This document shows, piece by piece, positions 41,196-55,705 of a stretch of DNA of 55,705 bases (the stretch's first letter is position 1; each line of letters opens with the position of its first letter). The notes below the pieces were generated by a model, which was not told the DNA's origin, did no database searches, and saw only the letters and a list, made by a program, of their open reading frames with translations. The stretch comes from Patescibacteria group bacterium (GTDB lineage Bacteria > Patescibacteriota > Patescibacteriia > Magasanikbacterales > GWA2-37-8). The stretch is taken from the NCBI GenBank assembly GCA_022710645.1, contig JAKLGL010000001.1, positions 473,296-529,000 of the forward strand, in the 5' to 3' direction. Both the position numbers and the translations under genes were made by a program.

Positions 41196-41855
41196 ATGAT
41201 TGACGGCTCAATCTTCAAAAATATAAATAAAACAATCAGAATCGGTTTGATTGCGTTAGTTTTGATTTTACCGATTTCTGTGTTGGCAGCCATGTCTTCC
41301 ACCAATTATTATATTTATGCGGATTCGGTGGAGACTGGCGGGGGATTGAGCAGTGGCGGTCTTTATGATTTAGAAGATACTTTGGGTGAAGGAGTCATTT
41401 CACAAGCGAGCGGAGCGACTTACAACATTAACGCCGGTTACCAAGCTATGGTTTTGGGCTCTCTCTCGATGAATATAAATGACAATTCTATAGATCTTGG
41501 AGATTTGAATGTTTCCACTATTATTTCTGCCAGCACTACAGTGACAGTAACGACCGACGCACAAACAGGCTACACTATGTCGATTCAAAATGCCGTTTGG
41601 ACAGGAAATCCTTTGGCTGATGTTGTCGGAGGATCGGTAGATATAGGTCAAGAAGAATACGGAATAGCCGTGAGCGGAAGCGACGCTTTTTTTGGAGATG
41701 ATCGCGTCGTAACTTCTACGCAAATTTTGGCAACAAAAAATTCTCCGGCTACAGGCAGTCAAACAGTTGTTACTTTTAAAGCCGCCATTAGTCCGAGTAC
41801 AATTTCCGGTTCCAGAAGTCAAGCGGTGACCATTGGAGTTTCTGCAAATTTTTAA
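41196..41855 (+). CDS. secreted beta-rich protein, WxL-domain-like in pattern
   Basis: The track ORF starts at 41142 inside the previous gene; the Met at 41196 (MIDGSIF) follows its stop. Signal anchor IGLIALVLILPISVLA. IDLGDLNVS...TVTVTTDAQTGYTMSIQ and ...ISGSRSQAVTIGVSANF recall WxL surface proteins, but no literal WxL motif is present. Confidence 0.8.
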   Translation: MIDGSIFKNINKTIRIGLIALVLILPISVLAAMSSTNYYIYADSVETGGGLSSGGLYDLEDTLGEGVISQASGATYNINAGYQAMVLGSLSMNINDNSIDLGDLNVSTIISASTTVTVTTDAQTGYTMSIQNAVWTGNPLADVVGGSVDIGQEEYGIAVSGSDAFFGDDRVVTSTQILATKNSPATGSQTVVTFKAAISPSTISGSRSQAVTIGVSANF

Positions 41856-41856
41856 T

Positions 41857-42747: not shown

Positions 42748-42762
42748 CTTGCTTGTCGCTAA

Positions 42763-43776
42763 ATGTATATGAATTCAACAAGGGGGAAAAATTTAAAAAA
42801 TATTTTTTACATCGGAATCATAATCGCGACATTATTTTTGTATAAAAACATAGCACAAACAGAAACACAAACCGGAAATATAAACGTAAACATGAACGTT
42901 GTCGCAAGCAGTACTCCTCCCGGAGGCGGACCGTCTGTTTCCGTGCCCTTTATTTATGATGTTAGAAGTAGTACGACAATGACTTCTGCGAAAATTGTTT
43001 GGAAAGTTAATGATTATGGTTATGGTTTAAACACTACAAGCGTGACGTATAGTATTGATTATTTTTTTGCAAATACAGCGCCGGCTATTGTTTCGGGCAC
43101 GGAATTTATAGCTGATATTTCAGGATTGCAATCCGATACGGTTTATAATTTTAGAATTCTTGCCAGAAATAATAGTTTTGTAGACGCCGTACCGGTGCAA
43201 AGCCAGTTTAAAACTCAAAAAGGAAATGTATTAAATAGTTTGACGATTTTGGCTAAACCGGAAAAAAGAGTTCCTAAAACAGGTGGTAATTTTGGCGCTA
43301 CAGCCAGTTTAATTTTTTATGATACGGTTTCAAATACTATTTTAATGAGCACCTCTACAATTTTGAGTTCTTCAGGAACAACCACTATATATAATGTAGA
43401 AGTTCCACTTATAACCAATTCGGCTGTGATTTTAAAAACGAATGCTCATTTAGCCAAAAGACTAAACGGAGTAAATACAAATGTTACGGATTTAACTTTG
43501 GATTTTACTGAAAACGGTATTGTTTATTTGTTAGCCGGAGATATGGCCGGAGATTTGCAAAATCCGACTGCGCAAAATCCGTTTACCCAGTTTTTACAGA
43601 GTGTTCACCAAGACGAGTTTGTGGATATTTTAGATATTTCATCCGTAGTTTCCAAATTCAACGATCAAACGGCGGGGGAAAGAGCCAATCTGAACGGTGA
43701 TAGTATCGTAGACGCTCAAGATATTAGTGTTGTTCTTGGAAATTGGAACAAAGAAGGAGACATTATTGTTAAATAA
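42763..43776 (+). CDS. anchored FN3-domain protein with C-terminal dockerin-like module
   Basis: FN3 pattern IYDVRSSTTMTSAKIVWKV...GLQSDTVYNFRILARN. C-terminal duplicated Ca-binding-like segments AGDMAGD...FVDILDISSVVSKF and NLNGDSIVDAQDISVVLGNW. Confidence 0.85.
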   Translation: MYMNSTRGKNLKNIFYIGIIIATLFLYKNIAQTETQTGNINVNMNVVASSTPPGGGPSVSVPFIYDVRSSTTMTSAKIVWKVNDYGYGLNTTSVTYSIDYFFANTAPAIVSGTEFIADISGLQSDTVYNFRILARNNSFVDAVPVQSQFKTQKGNVLNSLTILAKPEKRVPKTGGNFGATASLIFYDTVSNTILMSTSTILSSSGTTTIYNVEVPLITNSAVILKTNAHLAKRLNGVNTNVTDLTLDFTENGIVYLLAGDMAGDLQNPTAQNPFTQFLQSVHQDEFVDILDISSVVSKFNDQTAGERANLNGDSIVDAQDISVVLGNWNKEGDIIVK

Positions 43777-43850
43777 AGTTTATTTTACAATTTTTAGTTT
43801 TTGAATGATTTTTGAAAATTAAAAATTAAAAATTAAAAAATTAGACAAAT

Positions 43851-46433
43851 ATGTTTTTCAAAACAAAAATTTATATAGCGAGTTTGGTGGCGGGTTTGTT
43901 TTTTTCCGCGCCGGCTTTAGCAGCTACTTTTCATTTGTCTCCTTCGTCCGGAACTTTGATAAAAAATTGTAACAAAACAATCGAGGTGTTGATGGATGTC
44001 GATTCCCTAAAACAGAGCAATGCCGCCCAGATATATATAGATCATGATTTTATTTCCGGAGAAAGTGTTTCTCTGTCCGGAGCTGGTTTGTTTGCCAGCT
44101 ATGGAATTCCAACTCCTTTATCATCCGGTAGAATCGGTCTTTACGGATATACCAATAATATTTCCGGAACAGATAGAGTTTTTGCCAGAGTAACACTCAG
44201 AAGCGGTAATGTCGGAGCAATCAGAAATTTAAACATTCATTTTAACAACGCTGAATCCGTAACTTCCAAAATCGCCGATTTGGATAGTAATAATATTTTG
44301 ACAGGAGTTATTTCCGGCAGTTATACCGTTGTTGACGGATATTGCGAAACAGTTCCTCCATATTTGAGTAATATGAATCCGGCAGCGGACAAGCCTAACC
44401 ATCCGGTAGGGGATAATATTATTTTTGATTTAAAAGACGATAGTTCGGGAGTAAATATTGCGACTCTGGGAATTACTTTAAAACAAAACGGAACAGATGT
44501 TCCCTTTAATTTAACTACTACAAAAGTTAATCCCGGAGATGATAAAATTTATGCTATCACTATTGATCCGACAAGTGATTTAATCCGTGAAGTTAGAGTA
44601 GATGTTACTGTTACCGCTCAAGACAAGGCCGGTAATGTTATGAACCGTTCTTATAGTTTCAATGATTTAACTTGCGAACAACTCGGTTGTTTTGCCGCTC
44701 CGGTTGTTACTTCGACAGTAACAACCACTTGTCCTGAATGTAATTTTGTTTGTGAAGCCGGAACCACTACGGTGACTTCGACAGTCACTACTACACTGAC
44801 ACAAACGCTTTCTCTGCAAAATAACATAATGCCGATACATTTTTATTTGGATAATCGCGCGGTCGAAGCGACGATTTTTGGCGATGATGAAATTAGCGCT
44901 CTCGGTGGAACGGTTTTTACAGTGGCGGCTGATACTTTAAATTTGAACGAGTCAATTAATTCCGCTAAATTAATTTTAGAAGGTCGTGAATATCCGATGT
45001 TTTATGATAACAGTTTGAAAATGTATTCAACGGATATTTCCGATTTGGTAACCGCCGGATTTTATCAAGCGAGTTTACAGGTTAATTACGGTGCTGATCA
45101 AAATATAATTTCTAATTTTACCATCTCAGTTTTGAATCGCGGTTATGTGAATTTGAAAACCGCCAAAACAACCAGTCCTTTTTCCGGAGTGATGGTTTCT
45201 TTACAAAGGCTGGTCGATGGTGAATATTCTTTGATTAAAAAAATAAATACTGACGATAACGGAACTTACGGTTTCGTGGTGCCAAACGGAAATTATCGTC
45301 TTGTTTTTGAAGCTCCGAATTTTGATACAACTTATACCAGCGGTTTTTCCGTAGAGAATAATATTATTAATCGTACCCATACTTTTATAGAATCGGTTAG
45401 TTTACTTGATCCTGAAATTAGTTTAACGGAAAAAGCCGATTATCTTGCGGGTATTGTCGGAGGTAGAGGTCAAGAAATTATAGAATTAACCAACGATCCT
45501 CAGGTAGAAAAAGCTATACAAAATTATGCTGCGCCCATAGCTCTTGGTGCTGCCTTGGCGGCCACGGCTCCGGCATTATCTTTGATAAATTTATTATCTT
45601 ATTTGAGATTTTTATTCTTGCAACCTATTTTATTACTCGGTTTGCGTCGTCGCAAGAAATGGGGAGTCGTTTATGATTCTTTGACAAAATTACCGGTTGA
45701 TTTGGCAGTAATTCGTTTGCTTGATGCCAATACCAATAAAATTGTTCAATCTCGTGTAACAGACGCAAAAGGCAGGTATGTATTTTTGGCCAATCCCGGG
45801 ACTTATCGTTTGGTTGTTGAAAAACAAAAATTTATTTTTCCTTCTAAAATTTTACAAGATTTTAAAGAAGACACCACTTTCTTGGATATTTATCATGGAG
45901 AAATTATTCACGTTGATGAAAACTATACCATTATTGCCGCCAACATTCCGCTTGATACCGCAGGAGCTGAGGAAAAAACTCCTCGACGCATTATCATTGA
46001 TAAACACTGGAGAAGTTTTCAAAATTTTGTAGCATCATTGTCCGTGGCCGCCGGTATATTGTCGGTTATAATCACTCCGACTTGGTGGACAGTGCTTTTA
46101 TTGTTATCGCAAATTTTACTTTACTATTTATTCAAGCGTGTAGCTATACCGAAAAAACCGAAAAGCTGGGGTATTGTTTATGACAGAGACACCAAAAAAC
46201 CGGTTGGTAGAACTATAGCCAGATTGTTCAGTAAACAATTCAATAAATTGGTTTCTACGGAAATCACTGACAATTCCGGACGCTACTCTTTCATGGTCGG
46301 TCCGAGCGATTATTATGTGACTTTTGAAAAGACAGGTTATCAAAAAGCCACAACGCCGGATATCAAGATAAAAGAAAAAGACGAAGTTATAAAAGTGGAC
46401 ACAGCCATGGAAAAAACTAAAGAAAATTTTTAA
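43851..46433 (+). CDS. cohesin-like domain protein with Ig-like region, Thr-rich linkers, TM blocks and three CarboxypepD_reg-like domains
   Basis: 860 aa. Signal peptide ...FFSAPALA. Cohesin-like ATFHLSPSSGTL...IEVLMDVDS...NAAQIYIDHD...GSYTVV. Domains of the DDNGTYGFVVPNGNYRLVFEAPNF, DAKGRYVFLANPGTYRLVVEKQKF and DNSGRYSFMVGPSDYYVTFEKTGY type. Two hydrophobic blocks. Confidence 0.9.
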   Translation: MFFKTKIYIASLVAGLFFSAPALAATFHLSPSSGTLIKNCNKTIEVLMDVDSLKQSNAAQIYIDHDFISGESVSLSGAGLFASYGIPTPLSSGRIGLYGYTNNISGTDRVFARVTLRSGNVGAIRNLNIHFNNAESVTSKIADLDSNNILTGVISGSYTVVDGYCETVPPYLSNMNPAADKPNHPVGDNIIFDLKDDSSGVNIATLGITLKQNGTDVPFNLTTTKVNPGDDKIYAITIDPTSDLIREVRVDVTVTAQDKAGNVMNRSYSFNDLTCEQLGCFAAPVVTSTVTTTCPECNFVCEAGTTTVTSTVTTTLTQTLSLQNNIMPIHFYLDNRAVEATIFGDDEISALGGTVFTVAADTLNLNESINSAKLILEGREYPMFYDNSLKMYSTDISDLVTAGFYQASLQVNYGADQNIISNFTISVLNRGYVNLKTAKTTSPFSGVMVSLQRLVDGEYSLIKKINTDDNGTYGFVVPNGNYRLVFEAPNFDTTYTSGFSVENNIINRTHTFIESVSLLDPEISLTEKADYLAGIVGGRGQEIIELTNDPQVEKAIQNYAAPIALGAALAATAPALSLINLLSYLRFLFLQPILLLGLRRRKKWGVVYDSLTKLPVDLAVIRLLDANTNKIVQSRVTDAKGRYVFLANPGTYRLVVEKQKFIFPSKILQDFKEDTTFLDIYHGEIIHVDENYTIIAANIPLDTAGAEEKTPRRIIIDKHWRSFQNFVASLSVAAGILSVIITPTWWTVLLLLSQILLYYLFKRVAIPKKPKSWGIVYDRDTKKPVGRTIARLFSKQFNKLVSTEITDNSGRYSFMVGPSDYYVTFEKTGYQKATTPDIKIKEKDEVIKVDTAMEKTKENF

Positions 46434-46495: not shown

Positions 46496-49400
46496 ATGTT
46501 TAAAAAATTTATAATAGCCTTTTTGGTGGTTGGTATAGTTTCCATAACCGCGGTTGTTTGGTCTGCTAGTCCACCGCCGATTATTTCTTACCAAGGTAAA
46601 TTATTGGTTGGCGGAAATCCCGCTACCACAACATTGCCGATGGTTTTTGAAATTTATGATGCTTTATCCGGGGGTACATTATTATATACAGCATCTGGAA
46701 CACTGCCTGTCACATCGACTATTGATGTTTTACCTGTGCGCGGTTTGTTTACCGTGAATCTTGGTGATACTGGCACCAATCCTATTGATCAGGAGATTTT
46801 CAAAAACAATACCGATTTGTACATGCAGGTGACTATAAACGGAGAAACACTTTCTCCTCGTAAAAGAATTTCTTCAGCGCCGTATGCCATGAATTCTAAA
46901 TATTTGGATGGTAATTTTGCCACATCTTCTCCCACTACCACCAAATATATTCCCATCTCCGATACATTTGGAAATTTTGAACTGCGAGATGTTACTTCTA
47001 CCAACTTATATATAATAGGAAATGTAACAGCCAATACGGTTTCCGCCACAGCTTTTACATTAAACGGCGATACTATCACATCTTGGCCGACCGGTGGGGG
47101 ATCTTTACCAACTGGCATTAGCGGTCAACTCTTGATTCACAATGGATCGGATTGGATAGCCGGTAACACCTTTACCACCACCACGATTGTCAGAGATATT
47201 TTACCTGATATGACCGGAGGGTTGGGAAATGTGAGTTTGTATTCTCTTGGTAATACAACTTCACGTTTTGCGGAAGGTTGGTTTGAAAATATTTATTTGG
47301 GAAGTTCTACTTGGAAATTTAGTCAAGACGGAAGTGGAAATTTAAATATTTTGAACAACGGCACTTCAAATGGTTTATATATCGCAGCTAATGGAAATGC
47401 CGGTATCGGAGATGCTAACGTTTCGACAAAGTTTTTAATAGATAATCCGCAAGACGAAATTGAATTAATAAACGACAATAGCATGCCGAATTTTATAGCT
47501 CCATCATATGATATCGTGGTTGTGGGGGATGTGGCCTATACTATAAAAGAGACGGATTTTTCTATTTATGATATCAGTGATAGGACCAATCCTATTTTAA
47601 TTTCTTCAACCAGCTCTCTTGCCAACGCTGCTTGTTTGGAAATTTCGGGAAATTTTGCGTATATCGGCGATAGAGATACAGGATCTGGAGCTCACTTTGC
47701 TATAATTGATTTTACCAGTTCAACTGATATGCAAATGGCGGTTTATGCGTCATTGGGAGGAGATCCTCGAAATTCCAAGGTGGTTGGAAATATGCTTTAT
47801 TTGGTTTCGCCGGGAGGTAGTGGCGAACAGCTTATTAAAGTGGATATTACCAACCCATATGCGCCTTCAGCTGTTGGAAGTATAAATTTGATCGGAACAG
47901 AAGGTAAAGACATAGATGTTAGCGGAGGATATGCATATGTTGCCGAGGATAATTATTTGGAAATAATAGATGTAAATTCTTTTGTTACTACCTCAGTAGC
48001 TTCTATTTATGCAAATTCGGATGTGAAGATTTCCGGAAATTATGCCTATATGGCTGAATCGGGCGGGGGATTAAGAATTTTGGATATTTCCACTCCACTT
48101 TCTCCGGTTGATGTTGGTTTAGTAGAATCTGATTATGGAAAAGTTTGGAAGATAAAAGTAGTAGGTAATTATGTTTATGCTACAATTGATGGTCGAGGAG
48201 TAGAAGTCTTTGATGTTTCAAATCCGACAACTCCTTTTTCAGTAGCTTTTTATGATACCAGTTTTGGTCCTCAAAATATTGATGCGGACACCAATAGGTA
48301 TATATATGTAGATGCGCCAAAGCCAACTTTGATTTTACGATTTAATCCTGTAGTTGGAGGCGCGGCTCCTTATGCAGCTATATTCAACGGGGGTAAAGTT
48401 GGTATTGGTACCACGACTCCCGGACAGAATCTTTCCGTGGTAGGAAATATCGGTGCCACCAAAGGAATATATTTGGGATATGATAGTGAGCCTATAAATA
48501 CCGGGTATGGTTTATATAGCAGGGGAGGACAGTTATATTGGGACGGTTCGCCTGTTGGAGGATCTTCTTTGCCATCTGGTTCAACTTACGGCGATATGAT
48601 GTATTGGGACGGAGGTAATTGGCAAGCAAGCGGTATTCTTCGTTTAAATCCTTCCTATACTAATATTTCAATGGACGGAAACACTAATTATGGTAATAAT
48701 AGTGTTGCTTTCGGCTACGGAAATACTAATTACAGTTATACAGGTGCTGTTTTTGGTTATGGAAATTCAATTTATAGTGGAACCAGTTACGCATCTATTT
48801 TGGGAGGACAATATAATACTATTAGTAATAATTCTCCTTACTCATCTATAGTAGGAGGAAACGGAAATTCTGTTTCAGCTTGGGCTCAAGGTGCGGTGAT
48901 TGCAGGTGGTTTGTATAATTCAATAGGTTGGAGCTCCTCACAATCTTTTATTGGTGGGGGTGCCTATAATAGTACAGCTGGGCAGTCTCCTTTTATTGGA
49001 GGAGGTTATTCAAATTATGCGGCCAATAATTATGCTTCTATAGTTGGTGGTTATGACAATACTGCATCTGGCCAATATTCTACACTTGGTGGTGGCTATC
49101 AAAATAATGCTTCTGGGTATATGTCTGTAGTTGGTGGTGGTAGCGGCAATGTACCTACAGCAAATTATTCCGGTATTTTTTCCGGTCAAAACAACACTGC
49201 ATCTGGCCAATATTCTTTTATCGGTGGTGGTGGAGGAAATTATACTTCTGCTGATTATTCAGCTGTAGTCGGAGGTTATAGTAATCAAGCTACCGGCCAA
49301 TATTCTTTTGTGGGCGGTGGTTATGGAAACAACGCGGCTGGTAATTATTCTTCGGCTTTTGGTTATGGAACAGTAGTAGGAGGTAGTAATTCTTTTGGTA

Positions 49401-52400
49401 TAAACCTAAACACTTCCGGTTTTACTCTCAGCCAAGCCAACACTATGGCTATTATGAACGGTTATGTCGGTATCGGTACCACTACTCCTGCTTATCCTTT
49501 GACCGTCCAAGGTAATGTAAATATTACCGGACAATATTTGATAAATGGTGTTCCATTAAGCGGAGGAAGTAGCCAGTGGAGTACTGTTGGAAACAATATT
49601 TCAAATAGCAATTCCGGTAACGTGGTTATCGGTACGGACCAAACGATTTTAGGAATGACTCCTGAAAGTATCACTGATATGGTAGCAAACAGTCGCTATA
49701 ATAAGGGGCTTTTTGTTGTAAACAACATACTTTATTTTTGTGACTATAACAGCGGTTTGCGAATTTACAGTTTAAATTCCACCACTCCGGAACTTCTCGG
49801 TACTTATAATTACGGAGGAGGAATGTATCCTTTATCAAATGTTTATGTTTCCGGGAAATATGCTTACCTGACTTATGGTTATTTTTTTGTGATAGTTGAT
49901 ATTTCTGACCCTGCTAACCCTGTTTATCAAAGCAGTGCTTTTTCTAGCGGTAGTTCTGCCGGCTATAAAGACGTGGTAGCAGAAGGTAAATATGCATATG
50001 TTGTCGGTAGTGAAGGGTTTAAATTAATAGATATTTCCAATCCGAAAATTCCGGTGATTGTCCGTAATATCACTTCTTTAAATACAGGTTTCAATATAAA
50101 AATTTCCGGTGACTATGCTTATATAGCAGACGGTTCAGCCGGCTTGAAAATTTTTGATATTCGAGATGTAAATAATATTTTTCAAGTAGGCAGTTATCCT
50201 TCCGGAGGCACAATGAGTGCTCTTGAAATAAGAGGTGACTATGCTTTTATCGCCGATGGTTTAACTGGAGGGGCTTTTATATTAGATATTAAAAATAAAA
50301 CCAGCCCCGCGTTTGTTTCCAGTTTTCCCAGTGTTTTTAGAGCAGATGATATAGCGGTAAATGATAATTATGTATTTGTCGCAGCTGCAGCCGGAGGTGT
50401 TAGAATTTACAATATAGAAAATATTAATTCTCCGCTTTGGGTAAATACCATAGCGACTTGGAATGCATATGGTTTAAATATGTATGGAACTAAGTTATTA
50501 GTGGCTTTATACAGATCTCCAAATCAATTGTATATTTATCAACTTCAAGGATTAAAAGCAAATTCAGCCAAAATAGCCACAGCGGAAATTGACAGGTTGT
50601 CTGTTTTTGGTGATGCTGATTTCAATGGAAAAATTACTGTTAGAAATTCTTTAACAGTAGGTAAAGAAGGAATTATTTCTATGGGTCCGATACAGTCGGG
50701 CTACGGAGTTTATTTAAACTCTTCAACTCCGGCTACAACAAGTTATGCATTGTATAATCTTGGAGGTAATCTTTATTGGAACGGATCACCGGTTGGAGGA
50801 TCTGGTTCACTGCCTTTTGGTTCAATTGGTCAAACAATGCGTTATGGTAATTCTGGTTGGGAAGCGACCAACAATGTTTTTGTTTCTTCTTCTGGATATG
50901 TTGGTATTAATACAACAACCCCTAACTATCCTTTGAGTGTGCAAGGTGACATAAATATAACTGGACAGTATAGAATAAACGGAGTGCCGTTGAGTGTCGG
51001 GGGAGGAGTTCCGGCCGGATCAAACACTCAGATTCAATTCAACGATTCCGGTTCGTTTGGAGCTACTTCAACTTTTGTTTGGGATAATATAAACGGAAGA
51101 TTGGGGATAGGAACGTCAACTTCAAACTCTAAATTAACTTTAGATAATGATGGTGGAATTTTAGCTATAGGAAATTTTGGTAGTGGAAATACAGTTATAC
51201 CATCAGGTGCTGGAACAAGATTAATTTGGTTACCTTATCAAGGTGCTTTTAGAGCTGGTTATAGTAATGGAACTGTTTGGGATTATAGTAATATAGGGTC
51301 ATTTTCTGTAGCGTTTGGTTCTGGTAATAGAGCAAGTGGATATGCGTCAGCTGTTTCTGGTGGTAGTTTAGGAGTTGCTTCTGCGTATTATTCTTTGGTA
51401 GGTGGTGGTCTGCAAAATACTGCTAGTGAAAGATTTTCTGCAGTAGTTGGCGGTAATGCTAATACTGCTGCAGCAACTTCTTCTTTTGTTGGTGGTGGGT
51501 ATTTTAATAGAACGTATGGAATGTATTCATCTGTTGTAGGTGGTTATAGTAATATAGCTTCTGGAGATTCTTCTTTTGTGGGAGGAGGGCAATATAATGA
51601 TGTGAGCGGATCCAGTTCTGTGGCTCTTGGTAATAAAATGATTGTTTCCGGAAATTATTCTTTTGGCGTTAATGTTAGTAATACTTATGCATTTTTAAAT
51701 CAAGATAATACAATAGCTTTACTTGGCGGAAACACTGGTGTTGGTACTACTACACCGAGCTATCCTTTGAGTGTACAAGGTGATATAAATATAACTGGAC
51801 AGTATAGAATAAACGGAACACCTTTGAGTGTTGGCGGATCTTTACCTTCCGGAGTAATTGGTCAAACACTTATAAATGCCGGTGGTTCAACATGGAATCC
51901 TACCAACACTTTGTTTGTAAACGGTAACGGAGTAAGTATTGGATTTTTAAGTACTAGTACGGAAAGATTATTGTCTGTTCATGGTGACGCAGTAATCAAC
52001 GATCAATTGATTTCCAATCAAGAAGGCGGTTTATATTTTGGTCGTACTAGACTCTCGGAAAATATTTGGAATATTGGAAGTACTACTATTTGGGTAACTT
52101 CTACAGCTAAAATGACAGATCAAAATAGAAATTGGAGTTCTGTAGCCATGTCTTCTAATGGTCAATATCAATCAGCAGCAGTGTATAATGGATACGTTTA
52201 TATTTCCTCAGATTATGGAAATACTTGGGCGACTAGCACGGCAGCCGGCTCCAGAAGATGGAACGGAATTTTTATGTCTTCAGACGGTAAATACCAAACC
52301 GGAGTTGTTGGTTCTGGTTATATCTACACCTCATCTGATTATGGTAATACATGGGCGGAAAAAAAGAATGATTCAACAAGAGATTGGCGTTCAGTTTCTA

Positions 52401-55400
52401 TGTCTTCAGATGGTAAATATCAATCTGCGGTTGCAAATGGAGAATATATTTATGTTTCATCTGATTATGGAAATACTTGGACAAATAAAGAGTCTATAAT
52501 TAAAAATTGGGTTTCTGTGGCCGTTTCTTCAGATGGTAAGCGTCAGGCTGGAGCTGTTAGTAGTGGTTATATCTATCTTTCCTCAGATTATGGAAATACT
52601 TGGACGACTAGCACGGCAGCTGGTTCTAGAAGTTGGTACGGCTTATCCATGTCTTCAGATGGAAAATACATTTCCGCTATAATAACAGTAGGACAATTTT
52701 TAGTCTCTTCTGATTACGGAAATAGTTGGACCACTGTTTCTCCAAGTGCAAACTGGAGATCTATTACTATGTCAGCTGACGGTAAATATCAAACAGCTGG
52801 CGCTTATAGCCCTGCTGTTAATAGAATTTATGTTTCAGATGATTATGGAAGAAATTGGTATTTGAAATCTTTTTCTGGTGCGGCTGAATATCGTGGTATG
52901 GCTATGTCAGCTGACGGTAAATATCAAACAGCCGTTAATTATGGAGGTTATATTCAAACTAATGTTGCAGGTTCGTATTCTTTTGGGAATATTGGTGTTG
53001 GTACAACTACTCCTGGTTATGAATTAACTGTTCAAGGAAATATTAATTTTACAGGAAATATTTATCAAAACGGTTCATTGTTTTCCGGTGGAGGCGGTGG
53101 GACTCCAGGAGGTTTAGATGGGGAAATCCAATTTAATAATTCCGGTTCATTTGGTGCTACGTCCAGTTTCTTTTGGGATAAAATAAATGGAAGATTGGGG
53201 ATAGGAACTTCAACTCCTGGTTTTAAATTAACCATGAATAATGATGGCGGCATATTGGCTATAGGTAGCGGAGACGGTTTATTTAATCAGCAGGGAGCAG
53301 ATTTGGCTGTTACCGGTACTGGCACTAGAATGATTTGGTATCCAAAAAAAGGAGCTTTTAGGGCCGGCGGAGTTATTGATCCAAGTACTATAGGATTTCC
53401 GACAAATAATATAGATCAGTGGGATGATGATAATATTGGAGCTTTGTCTTTTGCAGCTAATTTGAGTAATATGGCTCGTGGCGGAGGCTCAACAGCTTTT
53501 GGTTTGGTAAATAATGCTTTGGGAGACATTTCTTTTGTCGGAGGTACTAACAATACTTCAAGCGGGTTTGCTTCTGTAGCTTTTGGTCGCGGTAATATTT
53601 CTTCTGCCACAAGTTCAGCAGTTTTTGGTACGGCCAATGAATCTTCTGGAGAAAATTCTTTTGTGACAGGTTTTTTAAACACTGCAAGTGGCAATAATTC
53701 TTTTGTAGGTGGTACGTACTCTTCAGCTCCTGGAGAAGATTCTTTTGCTTATGGTCAATATGCCATAGCTTACGGCTCCAGGTCTTTTTCTTTGGGAAGT
53801 TACACTCAAGCAGCTACAGGGTCGGTTGCTATTGGTAGTGGATCATTTTTAAACCCAACATGGGCAAGTGGCTTACAGTCTGTAGCTATCGGTAGTCCGT
53901 CACAAGCCAGCGGTTATCAAGCTGTAGCTATCGGTTATGGTGCTGGAGGTCATGCGACAGGTTCTATTGCTTTGGGAAATGTTGGAATTCGTGCCGGAGC
54001 TAATTATTCAATTGGTTTAAATGCAAGTTCGTCTTTGTTTAACATGTATACTCCGAATGTTATCGCATTAATGGGTGGAAACGTGGGTATTGGTACTACT
54101 TCTCCATTATTGAAATTATCAGTAAAAACAACCAACCCTCAAGATGGTATCGGTGTTTTTGATAATAATAACCGATTGGTTGCTGGTTTTGGTGCAGATC
54201 AATTTGGTTCTGGAGCTTTTGGAATATTTAATGGCACAAACAGAGTGATTACTTTGGATGGTGCTTCATATTCATATATTAATTCTGGAAATTTTGGTAT
54301 CGGTACTTCCACCCCGTCTTCAATGCTCACTATCCTTGGTAACGGTTCCACTGACCTCTTTTCTGTAGGTACTTCCACCAGTCGAGAATTATTAGCCGTC
54401 ACTGCTTCTGGTTCAGTTAAATTTATGAACGGAATGTTGGTTGTTGATACTACTGCTTTAAATACTGCCCGTTTAGCAGGCAGCGCTCTTGGTACAAGTG
54501 TCCTTATCGAAGCCGGTCTTGGTCAAGATGATTTCTTCTATCCGTTATTACCTGAAGGTACCAGTTGGAATGGGGGAGATTTAATCTTAAACCCTGGCGG
54601 TATGTTTGATTGGTATGGTGGTAACGGTCTCAATATCCGTCGTGGTAATGTATATATCGCCAGCTCCAGTTACGCTGCCAACGGTGGTAGGGTGGTTGTA
54701 GGAGATGGTACGGTCTTACCAGCCCAAAGATTTACTTTGGAAGGTGGTATATATAGTTATTCCTCATTTGGTTTAAATAAAGATACAATGGATGATTCTT
54801 TCTTAGTTGAAAACGCCGCTCAATTTATCTGGCATCCTAAATCCGCTTCTTTACGCGCCGGCTTCTTTACTGATACTTCAACTGTAGCAGAATCTAACTT
54901 AGGTAACTATTCCTTTGGTCTCGGTTATGATGTCACAGCTTCTGGCAACTATTCTTACGCTTTTGGTAGAAATATGGATGTTAGCGGTGTTGGCTCTTTC
55001 GGTATTAACCTTAAATCTTTCTCCAAAACACTGTCTCAAGACAATACCCTGGCTATTTTTGGCGATTATGTAGGTATCAACACTTCCACCCCGGGTTCCA
55101 CTTTTGTGGTTCAAGGTGATGCAGAAATTTATGGTAATTTTACAGTTTGTGTTTCTCCCGGAGTTTGCGGTTATGTCAGTTCCACCGATGGTAGTTGGTA
55201 CACTTCTTCAGATATCAGTTTAAAGAAAAACATTACTGATTTTACCGGAGGTTTGGACAAAGTTTTGGCTATGCGTCCGGTCGGTTATGAATTTAATAAT
55301 GAAGCTGATGCTAACGGCACCTCTCATATCGGTTTCATCGCCCAAGAAATGGAACAAATCTTACCGCAAATCGTTGGTTCAAACAAAGTCGGTCTCAAAT

Positions 55401-55705
55401 CCATTTCTTACGCCAATCTTACTCCTATCTTAGTGCAAGCTATCAAAGAGCAACAAGCCCAAATCGATGCTCTCAAAACTGCCACTGCTACTCTAACCGT
55501 AGAAAACAGCAGTAATCAAATCCTCTATACCGTAGATATCGGTATGGATATCGCCGGTCGACCCCTACTTAATGTCGCCTCCATTATTGGCGCTAACAAC
55601 AAATGGGAGATAGATATCAACGGCACACTCATCACCAAAATCACCACTGCTTCAGGAGAAGAAAAGAAACTTTACGGTATGAGTTCGGAGAATGTGGAGA
55701 TAACG
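46496..55705 (+). CDS. giant modular surface protein, 3' partial (more than 3070 aa; runs off the window)
   Basis: Read codon by codon from ATG 46496: there is no TAA, TAG or TGA in this frame through base 55705 (9210 nt = 3070 codons). It is absent from the track only because no stop lies inside the window. N-terminal anchor MFKKFIIAFLVVGIVSITAVVWSA. Coherent repeat and domain structure throughout. Confidence 0.9.
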   Translation, partial: MFKKFIIAFLVVGIVSITAVVWSASPPPIISYQGKLLVGGNPATTTLPMVFEIYDALSGGTLLYTASGTLPVTSTIDVLPVRGLFTVNLGDTGTNPIDQEIFKNNTDLYMQVTINGETLSPRKRISSAPYAMNSKYLDGNFATSSPTTTKYIPISDTFGNFELRDVTSTNLYIIGNVTANTVSATAFTLNGDTITSWPTGGGSLPTGISGQLLIHNGSDWIAGNTFTTTTIVRDILPDMTGGLGNVSLYSLGNTTSRFAEGWFENIYLGSSTWKFSQDGSGNLNILNNGTSNGLYIAANGNAGIGDANVSTKFLIDNPQDEIELINDNSMPNFIAPSYDIVVVGDVAYTIKETDFSIYDISDRTNPILISSTSSLANAACLEISGNFAYIGDRDTGSGAHFAIIDFTSSTDMQMAVYASLGGDPRNSKVVGNMLYLVSPGGSGEQLIKVDITNPYAPSAVGSINLIGTEGKDIDVSGGYAYVAEDNYLEIIDVNSFVTTSVASIYANSDVKISGNYAYMAESGGGLRILDISTPLSPVDVGLVESDYGKVWKIKVVGNYVYATIDGRGVEVFDVSNPTTPFSVAFYDTSFGPQNIDADTNRYIYVDAPKPTLILRFNPVVGGAAPYAAIFNGGKVGIGTTTPGQNLSVVGNIGATKGIYLGYDSEPINTGYGLYSRGGQLYWDGSPVGGSSLPSGSTYGDMMYWDGGNWQASGILRLNPSYTNISMDGNTNYGNNSVAFGYGNTNYSYTGAVFGYGNSIYSGTSYASILGGQYNTISNNSPYSSIVGGNGNSVSAWAQGAVIAGGLYNSIGWSSSQSFIGGGAYNSTAGQSPFIGGGYSNYAANNYASIVGGYDNTASGQYSTLGGGYQNNASGYMSVVGGGSGNVPTANYSGIFSGQNNTASGQYSFIGGGGGNYTSADYSAVVGGYSNQATGQYSFVGGGYGNNAAGNYSSAFGYGTVVGGSNSFGINLNTSGFTLSQANTMAIMNGYVGIGTTTPAYPLTVQGNVNITGQYLINGVPLSGGSSQWSTVGNNISNSNSGNVVIGTDQTILGMTPESITDMVANSRYNKGLFVVNNILYFCDYNSGLRIYSLNSTTPELLGTYNYGGGMYPLSNVYVSGKYAYLTYGYFFVIVDISDPANPVYQSSAFSSGSSAGYKDVVAEGKYAYVVGSEGFKLIDISNPKIPVIVRNITSLNTGFNIKISGDYAYIADGSAGLKIFDIRDVNNIFQVGSYPSGGTMSALEIRGDYAFIADGLTGGAFILDIKNKTSPAFVSSFPSVFRADDIAVNDNYVFVAAAAGGVRIYNIENINSPLWVNTIATWNAYGLNMYGTKLLVALYRSPNQLYIYQLQGLKANSAKIATAEIDRLSVFGDADFNGKITVRNSLTVGKEGIISMGPIQSGYGVYLNSSTPATTSYALYNLGGNLYWNGSPVGGSGSLPFGSIGQTMRYGNSGWEATNNVFVSSSGYVGINTTTPNYPLSVQGDINITGQYRINGVPLSVGGGVPAGSNTQIQFNDSGSFGATSTFVWDNINGRLGIGTSTSNSKLTLDNDGGILAIGNFGSGNTVIPSGAGTRLIWLPYQGAFRAGYSNGTVWDYSNIGSFSVAFGSGNRASGYASAVSGGSLGVASAYYSLVGGGLQNTASERFSAVVGGNANTAAATSSFVGGGYFNRTYGMYSSVVGGYSNIASGDSSFVGGGQYNDVSGSSSVALGNKMIVSGNYSFGVNVSNTYAFLNQDNTIALLGGNTGVGTTTPSYPLSVQGDINITGQYRINGTPLSVGGSLPSGVIGQTLINAGGSTWNPTNTLFVNGNGVSIGFLSTSTERLLSVHGDAVINDQLISNQEGGLYFGRTRLSENIWNIGSTTIWVTSTAKMTDQNRNWSSVAMSSNGQYQSAAVYNGYVYISSDYGNTWATSTAAGSRRWNGIFMSSDGKYQTGVVGSGYIYTSSDYGNTWAEKKNDSTRDWRSVSMSSDGKYQSAVANGEYIYVSSDYGNTWTNKESIIKNWVSVAVSSDGKRQAGAVSSGYIYLSSDYGNTWTTSTAAGSRSWYGLSMSSDGKYISAIITVGQFLVSSDYGNSWTTVSPSANWRSITMSADGKYQTAGAYSPAVNRIYVSDDYGRNWYLKSFSGAAEYRGMAMSADGKYQTAVNYGGYIQTNVAGSYSFGNIGVGTTTPGYELTVQGNINFTGNIYQNGSLFSGGGGGTPGGLDGEIQFNNSGSFGATSSFFWDKINGRLGIGTSTPGFKLTMNNDGGILAIGSGDGLFNQQGADLAVTGTGTRMIWYPKKGAFRAGGVIDPSTIGFPTNNIDQWDDDNIGALSFAANLSNMARGGGSTAFGLVNNALGDISFVGGTNNTSSGFASVAFGRGNISSATSSAVFGTANESSGENSFVTGFLNTASGNNSFVGGTYSSAPGEDSFAYGQYAIAYGSRSFSLGSYTQAATGSVAIGSGSFLNPTWASGLQSVAIGSPSQASGYQAVAIGYGAGGHATGSIALGNVGIRAGANYSIGLNASSSLFNMYTPNVIALMGGNVGIGTTSPLLKLSVKTTNPQDGIGVFDNNNRLVAGFGADQFGSGAFGIFNGTNRVITLDGASYSYINSGNFGIGTSTPSSMLTILGNGSTDLFSVGTSTSRELLAVTASGSVKFMNGMLVVDTTALNTARLAGSALGTSVLIEAGLGQDDFFYPLLPEGTSWNGGDLILNPGGMFDWYGGNGLNIRRGNVYIASSSYAANGGRVVVGDGTVLPAQRFTLEGGIYSYSSFGLNKDTMDDSFLVENAAQFIWHPKSASLRAGFFTDTSTVAESNLGNYSFGLGYDVTASGNYSYAFGRNMDVSGVGSFGINLKSFSKTLSQDNTLAIFGDYVGINTSTPGSTFVVQGDAEIYGNFTVCVSPGVCGYVSSTDGSWYTSSDISLKKNITDFTGGLDKVLAMRPVGYEFNNEADANGTSHIGFIAQEMEQILPQIVGSNKVGLKSISYANLTPILVQAIKEQQAQIDALKTATATLTVENSSNQILYTVDIGMDIAGRPLLNVASIIGANNKWEIDINGTLITKITTASGEEKKLYGMSSENVEIT
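47506..48350 (+). other. LVIVD-repeat beta-propeller module 1 of the giant protein
   Basis: Repeats of the type GDVAYTIKETDFSIYDISDRTNP, GNFAYIGDR, GGYAYVAEDNYLEIIDV, GNYAYMAESGGGLRILDISTPLSP, GNYVYATIDGRGVEVFDVSNPTTP. Confidence 0.65.
48671..49410 (+). repeat. Gly-rich Hep_Hag/YadA-head-like repeat block 1
   Basis: Degenerate ~14-aa units: SIVGGYDNTASGQYSTLGGGYQNNASGYMSVVGGGSGN..., ASGQYSFIGGGGGN, ATGQYSFVGGGYGN. Confidence 0.6.
49700..50555 (+). other. LVIVD-repeat beta-propeller module 2
   Basis: GKYAYLTYGYFFVIVDISDPANPV, GKYAYVVGSEGFKLIDISNPKIPV, GDYAYIADGSAGLKIFDIRD, GDYAFIADGLTGGAFILDIKNKTSP, DNYVFVAAAAGGVRIYNIENINSP. Confidence 0.7.
51299..51680 (+). repeat. Hep_Hag-like repeat block 2
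   Basis: SVAFGSGNRASGYASAVSGG..., SLVGGGLQNTASERFSAVVGGNANTA, SSFVGGGYFN, SSVVGGYSNIASGDSSFVGGGQYN. Confidence 0.6.
52130..52965 (+). repeat. BNR/Asp-box beta-propeller module (about 41-aa period)
   Basis: Six Asp-boxes, SSDYGNTW (x4), SSDYGNSW and SDDYGRNW, alternate with W.SV.MSSDGKYQ half-blades. Confidence 0.75.
53441..54025 (+). repeat. Hep_Hag-like repeat block 3
   Basis: STAFGLVNNALGDISFVGGTNNTSSGFASVAFGRGNISSATSSAVFGTANESSGENSFVTGFLNTASGNNSFVGGTYS... Confidence 0.6.
55205..55477 (+). other. Peptidase_S74-type intramolecular chaperone auto-processing domain (phage tail-fibre/endosialidase type)
   Basis: WYTSSDISLKKNITDF..GLDKVLAMRPVGYEFNNE......HIGFIAQEMEQILPQIV....LKSISYANLTPILVQAIKEQQAQIDALK, with the S-D-x-x-x-K Ser/Lys dyad spacing. 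Confidence 0.75.

What the first reader, a model, noticed from the sequence alone, without database searches (positions are those of the whole stretch)
55205..55477. Phage tail-fibre-type S74 intramolecular chaperone domain near the visible end of a chromosomal giant protein
The segment ...GSWYTSSDISLKKNITDFTGGLDKVLAMRPVGYEFNNEADANGTSHIGFIAQEMEQILPQIVGSNKVGLKSISYANLTPILVQAIKEQQAQIDALK carries the hallmarks of the Peptidase_S74 / endosialidase C-terminal intramolecular chaperone. These are the Ser-Asp-x-x-x-Lys dyad, the HIGFIAQE block, the Y..L.P.L..AI.E motif and a following coiled coil. In phage tailspikes and fibres this domain drives trimer folding and then cleaves itself off at the Ser. 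Here it implies that the giant protein is a trimeric, auto-processed fibre, possibly a domesticated phage-fibre module. Unusually, at least 76 further codons follow it before the window ends.
Basis: partly seen in the sequence, partly recalled or inferred. Interest (0 to 1): 0.7.

Follow-up and report, generated by a model that had tools for sequence, protein, structure and literature searches.

The report
Phage-type chaperone in giant cell fibre
A 3,248-residue surface-fibre gene next to the replication origin of an ultrasmall (Patescibacteria) bacterium carries a genuine phage-type self-cleaving folding domain. That domain is followed by a conserved, so far unnamed end-piece found in roughly 900 related protein clusters, so this is a cellular fibre built from phage-like parts, not a prophage gene.

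Summary
Window 55208-55477 encodes a Peptidase_S74 intramolecular chaperone domain (Pfam 50.7 bits against a cut-off of 22). It has the S2905-D-x-x-x-K2910 dyad, the S74 fold and a terminal helix. It lies in a 3,248-aa ORF that starts at 46496 and ends 537 nt beyond the window.

The gene is chromosomal. The window holds dnaA, dnaN, polA and DnaA-box clusters. A related strain has ychF and type IV pilus genes downstream. A related 906-kb genome contig keeps the same gene order. The organism is a Candidatus Magasanikbacteria bacterium.

Only the S74 region resembles phage families. The protein matches the logic of the Bdellovibrio "MAT" trimeric adhesive fibres.

The codons after S74 encode a conserved ~160-aa domain, then a 91-aa acidic tail. 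The domain has no Pfam, NCBIfam, PHROG or PDB sequence match. Its predicted fold resembles a phage fibre tip (lectin-like sandwich). It occurs in 897 protein clusters, always near the C-terminus. It directly follows an S74 domain (21 of the top 150) or a phi29-gp12-type G2 chaperone (114 of 150).

Self-cleavage and trimerisation are inferred, not shown. Verdict: real, cellular, and a new variant of a known kind.

The parts
46496..55705 (+). Giant fibre gene, aa 1-3070 of 3248. The ORF runs off the window; the stop codon lies 537 nt beyond the end.
   Evidence: ORF walk. The C-terminal 178 aa come from P0001, which is 100% identical over the overlap. Four independent metagenome contigs are collinear with the window without indels, reaching 50594-54848.
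46496..46564 (+). N-terminal signal peptide or signal anchor, MFKKFIIAFLVVGIVSITAVVWS, with a possible VWS/A signal-peptidase site.
   Evidence: Read directly from the sequence. Whether it is cleaved is not tested.
46565..46990 (+). Conserved N-terminal 'base' domain, aa 24-165.
   Evidence: Local jackhmmer finds it at the same position (about aa 25-200) in 104 sequences (proteins or locus ORFs). These include full-length carriers of the end-piece of both chaperone classes, and S74 proteins of Acidobacteriota, Phycisphaerae, Ignavibacteriales and Elusimicrobiota. It has no PDB sequence relative.
47510..48355 (+). First LVIVD-repeat (beta-propeller) region, about aa 339-620. Boundaries are approximate.
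   Evidence: Pfam PF08309 scores E 6.5e-46 with 7 stretches over the whole protein. Fragment scans place repeats at aa 339-371 and aa 508-541.
49718..50695 (+). Second LVIVD-repeat region, about aa 1075-1400. Boundaries are approximate.
   Evidence: Pfam LVIVD hits in fragments 3 and 4. Regex repeats at aa 1167, 1208, 1250 and 1293.
52205..52858 (+). Six BNR/Asp-box repeats (SSDYGNTW) spaced about 42 aa apart. A six-bladed propeller is likely.
   Evidence: Pfam BNR_6 E 3.7e-10. Regex positions aa 1904-2121.
53864..53944 (+). YadA-head-type repeat. It is one of three Gly/Ser/Asn-rich beta-roll blocks, at about aa 700-990, 1590-1745 and 2340-2530.
   Evidence: Pfam YadA_head at aa 2457-2483, E 9e-10 in the fragment scan. 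Weak LbR_Ice_bind beta-roll hits.
55073..55204 (+). Last copy of the recurring neck motif 'G(I/V)(G/N)T(T/S)TP..L.V.G' (10 copies in the protein), directly before the chaperone domain.
   Evidence: Regex map. PHROG tail-fibre profiles align from about here through S74.
55208..55477 (+). Peptidase_S74 intramolecular chaperone domain, aa 2905-2994. Predicted nucleophile Ser2905 (55208-55210), general base Lys2910 (55223-55225), predicted scissile bond Ser2905|Asp2906.
   Evidence: Pfam 50.7 bits against a cut-off of 22. PDB sequence alignments. AlphaFold2 model plus Foldseek hit to 7dc3 at E 6e-5. Cleavage itself is inferred.
55478..55705 (+). First 76 codons of the conserved post-chaperone end-piece, aa 2995-3147. 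It consists of a beta stem with the near-invariant NKW.ID..G motif, then a lectin-like beta sandwich that lies beyond the window. A 91-aa acidic tail (aa 3158-3248) follows, also beyond the window.
   Evidence: phmmer against 1.84 billion representatives finds 897 clusters at E<=1e-3. Alignment A2. AlphaFold2 gives pLDDT above 94 for the sandwich. No match in Pfam, NCBIfam or PHROGs, and none by profile search of PDB sequences.

Best explanation
The gene encodes a chromosomal, Sec-exported giant surface fibre of a Candidatus Magasanikbacteria (Patescibacteria/CPR) bacterium. It is built on the same plan as the Bdellovibrio 'mosaic adhesive trimeric' (MAT) fibres. The plan is: signal peptide, conserved N-terminal base domain, a long mosaic body, and a C-terminal assembly cassette. 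Here the body consists of beta-roll/YadA-like blocks separated by neck motifs, with LVIVD and BNR propellers. In this protein the cassette is an S74 intramolecular chaperone. The inferred mechanism runs as follows. Three chains register through the S74 domain. The domain templates folding of the trimeric neck and stalk on its N-terminal side. The Ser2905/Lys2910 dyad then cuts the Ser2905|Asp2906 bond. This separates a mature fibre of about 2,880 aa from a 343-aa C-terminal fragment. The fragment consists of the chaperone, a conserved 160-aa fibre-tip-like domain (beta stem plus lectin-like sandwich), and a 91-aa acidic tail. I read the end-piece as part of the assembly pro-region, an extra trimerising or glycan-binding clamp that leaves with the chaperone. 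The reason is that across relatives it always sits on the C-terminal side of a self-cleaving chaperone, whichever of two unrelated chaperone types is used. What is shown: domain identities, the catalytic motif, predicted folds, chromosomal context, and the family-wide architecture. What is inferred: export, trimerisation, cleavage, the fate of the fragment, and an adhesive role toward a host cell.
For: S74 identity rests. Chromosomal context: dnaA, dnaN, tig, PBP1, H+-PPase, polA, holA, rmuC and five tRNAs are in the window. DnaA-box clusters and the GC-skew minimum lie at about 24-30 kb. Downstream are ychF, a methyltransferase, the pilNMCB cluster and ssb. The order rmuC-TPR-3 small genes-CarboxypepD_reg-S74 giant-208 aa-ychF is kept in GCA_036744835.1. 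Organism: P0121, which is 100% identical over the end-piece, is named Candidatus Magasanikbacteria. Phage similarity is limited to aa ~2850-3000, and the first 2,000 aa hit no PHROG family. The end-piece was not found in 2.9 million viral contigs. The full architecture exists in one uninterrupted 1,952-aa orthologue, P0126. It shares the N-terminus at 62% identity, the modules and the cassette. Among the top 150 carriers of the end-piece, S74 lies directly upstream in 21, a G2-type module in 114, and both occur in 8. The G2-type module profile hits the phi29 gp12 autochaperone 3gqh starting exactly at its post-cleavage residue D692, with invariant D-x-A-E. Six of 16 members hit PF11962, best E 1.3e-7. 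All 28 carriers of the end-piece with a complete S74 N-terminus keep S-x4-K, and 21 keep S-D. The precedent is in PMC10769870: MAT fibres have a signal peptide, a conserved ~130-aa N-domain and variable tips. Thirteen of 21 end in S74 with SDxxxK, and Bd3182 self-cleaves at S782, which S782A blocks.
Against: There is no experimental or structural evidence here for trimerisation or cleavage of this protein. The model is a monomer, and its stem region has pLDDT of only 52-85. The end-piece looks like a receptor-binding fibre tip. It is strongly conserved, with five invariant and 22 near-invariant columns. That is more than one might expect of a disposable pro-peptide, and it fits a role as the real adhesive tip, which cleavage would detach. 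Beta-propeller inserts are not typical of trimeric phage-like fibres. Homology of the N-domain to the Bdellovibrio MAT N-domain was not tested, because no Bdellovibrio sequence was at hand. The signal peptide has an 18-residue hydrophobic core and could be an uncleaved anchor.
Confidence: 0.6

Rival explanations
1. The S74 domain serves only as an internal trimerisation and folding module and does not cleave, or cleaves but stays bound. The lectin-like end-piece is then the true distal, target-binding tip of the fibre.
For: The end-piece model resembles phage fibre and tailspike tips and H-type lectins. PDB matches: 7eea E 5e-4 over 72 columns at 2.4 A; 3wmp E 0.014; 4mtm E 0.017. BFVD tail-fibre proteins match down to E 7e-7. 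The end-piece is highly conserved. MAT fibres that lack S74 end in beta-sandwich or lectin tips (PMC10769870). Eight relatives place S74 well inside the protein, upstream of another chaperone module.
Against: The Ser...Lys dyad is kept in 28 of 28 relatives, and the canonical S-D in 21. Every S74 domain studied so far (endosialidase, T5 pb1, MyRF, Bd3182) cleaves and the parts separate (PMC8326128, PMC10769870). The alternative upstream module keeps the D-x-A-E cleavage-site motif of phi29 gp12. So two unrelated self-cleaving domains occupy the same slot.
Confidence: 0.25
2. MyRF-like programmed release. The end-piece and acidic tail hold the C-terminus at the cell's own wall, with the lectin-like domain binding a wall glycan. 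S74 cleavage then frees that end of the fibre, or frees the whole fibre if the N-terminal signal peptide is also removed.
For: In MyRF the same domain lies internally and releases an N-terminal trimer from a C-terminal anchor (PMC3742440, PMC8326128). The fragment carries a glycan-binding-type fold and a Glu/Thr/Ser/Pro-rich, wall-spanner-like tail with net charge -26. In Bacteroidota, S74 is likewise followed by a terminal sorting domain.
Against: There is no transmembrane segment, LPXTG motif or known wall-binding domain after S74. The extreme C-terminus is not conserved beyond close orthologues. No binding data exist.
Confidence: 0.12
3. It is the tail-fibre gene of an integrated prophage or another mobile element.
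For: S74 and the preceding neck match 33 PHROG tail-fibre families, down to E 1e-24. The upstream 860-aa protein has a marginal 'phage_tail_N' Pfam hit at 28.3 bits.
Against: No phage gene lies within 46 kb upstream or 10 kb downstream. The locus sits about 18 kb from oriC. Gene order is conserved in a related species. The first 2,000 aa have no PHROG hit. The end-piece is absent from viral contigs. The phage_tail_N hit lies under a stronger CarboxypepD_reg match.
Confidence: 0.02
4. The giant ORF is an assembly chimera that joins a repeat-rich surface gene to an unrelated S74 gene end.
For: All four other contigs that carry the upstream gene stop inside the giant gene before nt 54849. The next contig, L165, starts at 55650. 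Nucleotides 54849-55649 are therefore covered by the window alone among the contigs read; the source of P0001 (from 54974) is hidden. Paralogous end-pieces exist in the same MAG.
Against: The orthologue P0126 and the ORF at the start of contig L085 carry body repeats, neck, S74 and end-piece in one ORF from independent assemblies. The 3,650-aa P0123 and the 3,049-aa ORF of L007 have the same layout. The reading frame is open throughout.
Confidence: 0.02

Closest known systems
Bdellovibrio bacteriovorus MAT (mosaic adhesive trimeric) fibres (Caulton et al. 2024, PMC10769870)
   Same: They are chromosomal cellular fibres. They share a signal peptide, a conserved beta-rich N-terminal domain of about 130-140 aa, a mosaic repetitive body, and an S74 domain with SDxxxK at the C-terminal end in most members. 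The producing organism lives by contacting other cells.
   Different: This protein is about three times longer (3,248 aa against about 1,000 aa). It has LVIVD and BNR propeller inserts. The organism is a Patescibacteria bacterium, which by general knowledge of the group (not tested here) has a Gram-positive-type envelope. S74 is not terminal: a conserved 160-aa tip-like domain and an acidic tail follow it. Homology of the N-domains was not tested.
Phage S74 C-terminal intramolecular chaperone domains (K1F endosialidase 3GW6/3GUD, T5 pb1 4UW8, tail fibre 8jov)
   Same: Same Pfam family, same S-D-x-x-x-K dyad, same fold with terminal helix, and a similar neck just upstream.
   Different: In phage families the domain is the very end of the protein. 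Here 254 residues follow it, and the gene is cellular.
Eukaryotic MyRF/MrfA ICA domain (7dc3; PMC8326128, PMC3742440)
   Same: It is the best structural match (E 6e-5). The S74-type domain is used internally by a cellular protein, and cleavage separates two functional parts.
   Different: In MyRF a transmembrane anchor follows the domain and the released part is a transcription factor. Here a soluble lectin-like domain and an acidic tail follow, and the other part is an extracellular fibre.
phi29 gp12 pre-neck appendage autochaperone (MEROPS/Pfam Peptidase_G2; 3gqh, 3suc, 6qz9)
   Same: In 114 of 150 sister proteins, a homologue of this unrelated self-cleaving chaperone occupies the slot that S74 occupies here. 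It keeps the D-x-A-E motif at the cleavage-site position.
   Different: It is not present in the window's protein. In phi29 it is terminal.
Bacteroidota 'tail fiber domain-containing proteins' with a T9SS C-terminal sorting domain
   Same: They are cellular S74 proteins in which another small beta-sandwich domain follows S74 at the extreme C-terminus (P0025, P0064, P0073, P0089). The N-terminal domain and YadA_head repeats are similar.
   Different: Their terminal domain is Por_Secre_tail. The end-piece here has no match to it, and the T9SS it serves belongs to outer-membrane-bearing Bacteroidota (general knowledge, not tested here).
H-type lectins (HPA 2ccv, HAA 4q56, SLL-2 3wmp) and phage tailspike/fibre C-terminal knobs (Pam1 7eea, AP22 gp53 4mtm, R2 pyocin 6cl6)
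   Same: They share the predicted fold of the beta sandwich that follows S74.
   Different: There is no detectable sequence similarity. Foldseek E-values are modest (5e-4 to 0.2). Glycan binding is untested.

Membership tests
Peptidase_S74 / intramolecular chaperone auto-processing domain (PF13884) | Profile match above the curated threshold | tested here: met
   50.7 bits against a gathering score of 22, E 2.2e-13.
Peptidase_S74 / intramolecular chaperone auto-processing domain (PF13884) | Ser-Lys dyad in the S-D-x-x-x-K arrangement at the N-terminal edge of the domain | tested here: met
   S2905-D-I-S-L-K2910. It aligns with the dyad positions of 8jov, 6f45 and MyRF 7dc3.
Peptidase_S74 / intramolecular chaperone auto-processing domain (PF13884) | Chaperone fold ending in a long helix | tested here: met
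   AlphaFold2 pLDDT above 95. Foldseek hits 7dc3 at E 6e-5 and also lists 3gud.
Peptidase_S74 / intramolecular chaperone auto-processing domain (PF13884) | Homotrimerisation and autoproteolysis at the Ser | not testable with these tools
   This needs expression of wild type against S2905A/K2910A, or at least a trimer prediction.
Phage tail fibre / prophage structural gene | Embedded among phage structural, lysis or integration genes | tested here: not met
   The flanks are dnaA-dnaN, polA, holA and rmuC upstream, and ychF, the pil cluster and ssb downstream. Synteny is kept in a related genome.
Phage tail fibre / prophage structural gene | S74 domain at the extreme C-terminus, as in phage families | tested here: not met
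   254 aa follow the domain. PHROG profiles end at S74.
MAT fibres (Bdellovibrio) | Signal peptide followed by a conserved beta-rich N-terminal domain of about 130 aa | tested here: inconclusive
   A hydrophobic N-terminus and a 142-aa domain are conserved at the same position in 104 sequences (proteins or locus ORFs). No Bdellovibrio MAT sequence was available to test homology.
MAT fibres (Bdellovibrio) | C-terminus is an S74 domain (SDxxxK) or an adhesive tip domain | tested here: met
   S74 with SDxxxK is present. Unlike MAT fibres, a tip-like domain follows it as well.
MAT fibres (Bdellovibrio) | Trimeric beta-helical body displayed on the cell surface | not testable with these tools
   The only indications are YadA_head and beta-roll profile hits and the repeated neck motifs.
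Trimeric autotransporter adhesins (YadA type) | C-terminal 12-stranded beta-barrel membrane anchor | tested here: not met
   No YadA_anchor hit. The C-terminus is S74, end-piece and acidic tail. Only the YadA_head repeat is shared.
T9SS cargo | Por_Secre_tail C-terminal sorting domain | tested here: not met
   No Pfam hit in the 254-aa tail even at E<=10. The domain is present in Bacteroidota S74 proteins.
Peptidase_G2 intramolecular chaperone (phi29 gp12 type) | G2 module with the D-x-A-E motif | tested here: not met
   No match anywhere in the six-frame translation of the window. It is present in sister proteins.
H-type lectin (PF09458) | Profile match, and the H-lectin beta-sandwich fold | tested here: inconclusive
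   No Pfam hit. Foldseek to 3wmp, 4q56 and 2ccv gives probability 0.97-1.0, but E of 0.014-0.16 and TM 0.46-0.49 normalised by target.

The most novel reading that the evidence does not exclude
The 160-aa end-piece may be an undescribed 'post-chaperone' module of giant surface fibres. Where carriers are named they are mostly Patescibacteria. Evolution has placed it downstream of two unrelated self-cleaving intramolecular chaperones, S74 and G2, and sometimes both in series. On this reading maturation is a two-product event. One product is a cell-bound fibre. The other is a trimeric, lectin-like particle (chaperone, tip-like knob and acidic tail) with its own job. That job could be anchoring to the producer's wall with MyRF-like programmed release, or acting as a diffusible host-glycan-binding factor. 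On this reading it would not be a disposable pro-peptide.
Probability: 0.25. Interest if true: 0.75.

Novelty: new variant of a known kind. Interest (0 to 1): 0.55.

Why it matters
All cultivated Patescibacteria (CPR) are ultrasmall episymbionts (PMC12206443). How they recognise and hold on to host cells is largely unknown (PMC12206443, PMC11665869).

This locus shows that one of them encodes, next to its replication origin, a 3,248-aa fibre assembled with phage-derived folding machinery. It belongs to a family of hundreds of giant proteins that share an N-terminal base domain and a C-terminal cassette of self-cleaving chaperone plus tip-like domain. The family gives concrete, testable candidates for host-contact structures.

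It extends the MAT-fibre idea from a predatory proteobacterium to the CPR. It also defines a domain family that is absent from Pfam, NCBIfam, PHROGs and the PDB.

The interchange of S74 and G2 chaperones at one slot is a clean natural experiment on what intramolecular chaperones do for extracellular fibres. The S74 call itself is ordinary. NCBI already names thousands of such proteins 'tail fiber domain-containing protein'.

Tried and rejected
- **Exact look-up of P0001.** It found nothing. P0001 is a 422-aa gene call from the internal ATG at 54974, so the giant gene is not stored as one product.
- **The word-indexed protein search.** It returned no protein longer than 699 aa, so it appears unable to return giant relatives. 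The representative search was needed to see them.
- **Scans of genome contigs and metagenome contigs with P0001.** Neither found the window's own contig. They gave orthologues at 61-68% identity and many S74 hits. The downstream sequence came instead from P0121 and contig L165.
- **The 'G2-like' label.** It looked shaky at first. One fragment scored 20.7 bits, below the cut-off of 25, and ten full proteins gave no hit. A profile of the module settled it in favour of homology, by hitting the phi29 gp12 autochaperone at its cleavage site, together with a per-member scan.
- **Cluster look-up of ten relatives.** It returned no organism names.
- **A conserved C-terminal '...P(V/I)E' sorting signal.** It holds only among close orthologues. 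It is absent in L006, L070, L126 and L019, so I rejected it.
- **The 'phage_tail_N' hit in the upstream 860-aa protein.** I judged it a shadow of the stronger CarboxypepD_reg match.
- **Literature searches for S74 or 'chaperone of endosialidase' together with CPR terms.** They found no prior description.
- **The viral-contig scan for the end-piece.** It relied on a single peptide pattern, so its negative result is weak on its own. The absence of any PHROG hit supports it.
Full report
**1. The observation**

It lies in one open frame that begins at ATG 46496 and runs off the window end, 3,070 codons in all.

Pfam finds four families in the whole product:
- LVIVD repeats: E 6.5e-46, 7 stretches.
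- Peptidase_S74 at aa 2905-2960: E 2.2e-13, 50.7 bits against a gathering score of 22.
- BNR/Asp-box repeats.
- YadA_head.

The dyad is S2905-D-I-S-L-K2910, at nt 55208-55225. A PDB sequence search aligns it with SDERLK of a phage tail fibre (8jov), with SDRRIK of a long-tail-fibre distal subunit (6f45), and with the corresponding position of the MyRF ICA domain (7dc3).

An AlphaFold2 model of aa 2882-3161, built on a 56-sequence alignment, has mean pLDDT 85 and above 95 across the S74 part. Its best PDB fold matches are the MyRF ICA domain (E 6e-5) and 3gud, 'a novel intramolecular chaperon'.

The 'coiled coil' is a predicted long terminal helix, aa 2972-2996. It belongs to the chaperone fold. 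The phage protein 8jov ends three residues after the equivalent helix.

**2. The end of the gene**

A database protein, P0001, is 100% identical to the last 244 residues encoded in the window. It is a 422-aa gene call from the internal ATG at 54974, and it continues for 178 residues to a stop codon. The full protein is therefore 3,248 aa.

After S74 come three elements:
- A stem of about 75 aa with a nearly invariant NKW.ID..G motif.
- A beta sandwich of about 80 aa ending in ...ITFDWMVLAKRK.
- A 91-aa tail that is 25% Glu, 18% Thr, 13% Ser and 11% Pro, with net charge -26.

None of this matches Pfam even at E<=10. It also matches nothing in NCBIfam, nothing in PHROGs, and no PDB sequence when searched as a profile.

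**3. Chromosome or prophage**

The window contains these cellular genes:
- dnaN (21693-22823) and dnaA (22846-24243).
- Trigger factor, a class-A penicillin-binding protein, and an H+-pyrophosphatase.
- polA, holA, rmuC and five tRNAs.

DnaA-box-like sites number 39, against 16.5 expected. They cluster at 24336-24365 and 28462-28720. The cumulative GC-skew minimum lies at about 28-30 kb. The window therefore spans oriC, and the giant gene lies about 18 kb away, co-oriented with replication.

The identical upstream 860-aa gene occurs on four other metagenome contigs. All are collinear with the window without indels, and all break inside the giant gene.

A contig from one of the same samples, L165, overlaps the window's last 56 nt with one synonymous difference, and its product P0121 matches P0001's C-terminal end wherever the two were compared. 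Downstream it carries a convergent 208-aa lipoprotein-like gene, ychF, a DNA methyltransferase, pilN, pilM, pilC, pilB and ssb.

A related genome, GCA_036744835.1 (906-kb contig), keeps the order rmuC, TPR membrane protein, three small genes, CarboxypepD_reg protein, S74 giant, 208-aa gene, ychF. Its giant, P0126, is 1,952 aa. It shares the N-terminus (62% identity over aa 1-183), the internal modules and the C-terminal cassette.

NCBI names the product identical to the end-piece 'hypothetical protein P5230_02345, partial [Candidatus Magasanikbacteria bacterium]'. That taxon lies in the Patescibacteria group.

Phage-family profiles hit only aa ~2850-3000. In 24 of the 25 best families, the match ends within about 25 positions of the profile's C-terminus. 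The first 2,000 residues hit no PHROG family.

The prophage reading is rejected. An assembly chimera is made unlikely by P0126, L085, P0123 and L007. Each carries body repeats, neck and S74 in one ORF, and the first three also carry the end-piece.

**4. What follows S74 is a family, not an oddity**

A full HMMER scan of 1.84 billion representative proteins with the 163-aa end-piece found 897 clusters at E<=1e-3 and 290 at E<=1e-10. Except in gene calls cut at the contig end (afterTail 1-2 aa), the match lies about 25-240 aa (one case 416) from the C-terminus of proteins up to 4,619 aa long.

I used local HMMs on the best 150 to ask what lies directly upstream of the end-piece:

| Directly upstream | Count of 150 |
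|---|---|
| A different 135-aa module | 114 |
| S74, as here | 21 |
| N-terminally truncated | 12 |
| Other | 3 |

In 8 of the 150, the order is S74, a spacer of about 120 aa, that same 135-aa module, then the end-piece.

The 135-aa module has an invariant D-x-A-E motif. Its profile hits the phi29 gp12 pre-neck-appendage autochaperone. The match to 3gqh starts at that chain's first residue, D692, in DFAEYFE (E 8.7e-4). From my own knowledge of the gp12 literature, not tested here, that residue is the one created by autocleavage. Six of 16 module copies also hit Pfam Peptidase_G2, best E 1.3e-7.

So the same end-piece follows either of two unrelated self-cleaving intramolecular chaperones.

All 28 carriers of the end-piece with a complete S74 N-terminus keep Ser-x4-Lys, and 21 keep Ser-Asp.

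Named carriers of the end-piece are as follows:
- Three Magasanikbacteria MAGs (four proteins).
- One Uhrbacteria MAG.
- An 'ACD' aquifer bacterium.
- One weak Flavobacterium hit.
- Two MAGs labelled Gammaproteobacteria (L006, L019). I did not verify those labels.

A scan of viral contigs found none.

In Bacteroidota cellular S74 proteins, S74 is likewise followed, about 80 aa later, by a terminal T9SS sorting domain.

**5. Fold of the end-piece**

A second AlphaFold2 model covers the end-piece alone (34 sequences). It gives pLDDT 91-97 for the sandwich and 55-84 for the stem.

Foldseek against the PDB gives these matches:
- Cyanophage Pam1 tailspike, 7eea: E 5.4e-4, 72 columns, 2.4 A.
- The H-type lectin SLL-2, 3wmp: E 0.014.
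- AP22 tail fibre gp53, 4mtm: E 0.017.
- Weaker hits to Helix lectins, R2 pyocin fibre and several tailspike C-terminal domains.

Against predicted viral structures, the best 20 matches have E between 7e-7 and 8e-4. The named ones are tail-fibre, tail or minor-tail proteins or carry a collagen triple-helix repeat; about half have no informative name. Lower in the list are entries annotated 'H-type lectin domain', 'gp53-like C-terminal domain' and 'K1 lyase C-terminal domain'.

The end-piece therefore looks like the distal tip of a phage fibre. It sits, however, on the C-terminal side of the chaperone. That is the opposite of the phage order.

**6. Architecture of the whole protein**

The layout, in order, is:
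- A signal peptide or anchor, aa 1-23.
- A 142-aa domain conserved at the same position in 104 sequences (proteins or locus ORFs), including both chaperone classes and S74 proteins of other phyla.
- Two LVIVD propeller regions.
- Three Gly/Ser/Asn-rich beta-roll or YadA-like blocks.
- Six Asp-box repeats.
- Ten copies of a 'GIGTTTP..L.V.G' neck motif.

This matches the plan described for Bdellovibrio MAT fibres: a signal peptide, an invariable ~130-aa N-domain thought to bind the producer's surface, a trimeric body and exchangeable C-terminal ends. Thirteen of 21 MAT fibres end in S74. Bd3182 self-cleaves at S782, and S782A abolishes the cleavage (PMC10769870).

**7. Mechanism**

Best supported: a Sec-exported fibre whose three chains are registered and folded from the C-terminal S74 domain. 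The domain then cuts Ser2905|Asp2906 and detaches a 343-aa fragment. The fragment is the chaperone, the tip-like domain and the acidic tail. I read the end-piece as part of the assembly cassette, because it always lies beyond a self-cleaving module.

Three rivals I cannot exclude:
- S74 does not cleave, or stays bound, and the knob is the real adhesive tip.
- The knob and tail anchor the C-terminus, and cleavage is a MyRF-like release step.
- The fragment is a second, free product.

Export, trimerisation, cleavage and adhesion are all inferences.

**8. Novelty**

The S74 call in a cellular fibre is not new. It is covered by MAT fibres, MyRF, and the NCBI name 'tail fiber domain-containing protein'.

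Three things appear to be undescribed, in Pfam, NCBIfam, PHROGs, PDB sequences and the searched literature:
- The conserved post-chaperone end-piece.
- Its combination with either S74 or G2 chaperones.
- The spread of this cassette across hundreds of giant proteins, whose named carriers are mostly Patescibacteria.

I class the finding as a new variant of a known kind, of moderate interest.

Noticed in passing
window 38885-46433: A conserved surface-protein gene cluster lies directly upstream of the giant gene. It has a 765-aa polytopic membrane protein with C-terminal TPRs and a 237-aa protein with an N-terminal anchor. Next comes a 304-aa secreted protein with weak WxL-interacting/Fn3 hits (below cut-off) and a C-terminal transmembrane anchor. 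It ends with a 337-aa secreted protein with a dockerin-like C-terminus and an 860-aa protein with CarboxypepD_reg domains and several hydrophobic, transmembrane-like segments. The same order precedes the orthologous giant gene in GCA_036744835.1 (L166). These may be partners for anchoring or assembling the fibre.
   Followed up: partly
window 21693-30960: The window spans the chromosomal replication origin region: dnaN (21693-22823, -), dnaA (22846-24243, -), DnaA-box clusters at 24336-24365 and 28462-28720, and the cumulative GC-skew minimum at about 28-30 kb. From about 30.9 kb onward most large ORFs are on the + strand; between about 21.7 and 30.8 kb they are on the - strand.
   Followed up: partly
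window 50594-54848; L001-L004: Every other public contig that carries the identical upstream gene ends inside the giant gene, at window positions 50594, 54502, 54506 and 54848. The next contig, L165, starts at 55650. The repeat-rich gene and its paralogous C-terminal cassette systematically break short-read assemblies, so such genes are probably under-counted.
   Followed up: partly
L090 3-569; L087 2-1261; L166 21310-25245: Paralogues exist. The same MAG (locus-tag prefix P5230) has a second product carrying the end-piece (P0211, 58% identical). Contig L087 has an end-piece 80% identical to this one, but behind a G2-type module instead of S74. The related genome L166 has two genes carrying S74 plus the end-piece, 5 kb apart.
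   Followed up: partly
P0125, P0128, P0145, P0170, P0193, P0207, P0221, P0233: Eight relatives carry both chaperone types in series: S74, then about 120 aa, then a G2-type module, then the end-piece. Most keep the Ser...Lys dyad. This predicts two successive autoproteolytic cuts in one protein.
   Followed up: no
L165 4087-9551: A type IV pilus gene cluster (pilN, pilM, pilC/T2SSF, pilB/T2SSE) lies 3.5-9 kb downstream of the giant gene in the near-identical strain. The fibre and the pilus, both candidate host-contact structures, are therefore chromosomal neighbours.
   Followed up: no
window 8069-10981 (- strand): There is a 970-aa protein with four Lamin Tail Domains, a PKD domain and an OB-fold nucleic-acid-binding domain. 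This is another large, probably extracellular protein (possibly a DNA-binding or uptake protein) close to the origin.
   Followed up: no
window 54974-55705 (P0001): The public protein record for this region is a 422-aa call from an internal ATG, not the 3,248-aa product. In addition, the word-indexed protein search never returned a protein longer than 699 aa. Annotation and search tools both hide giant genes like this one.
   Followed up: partly
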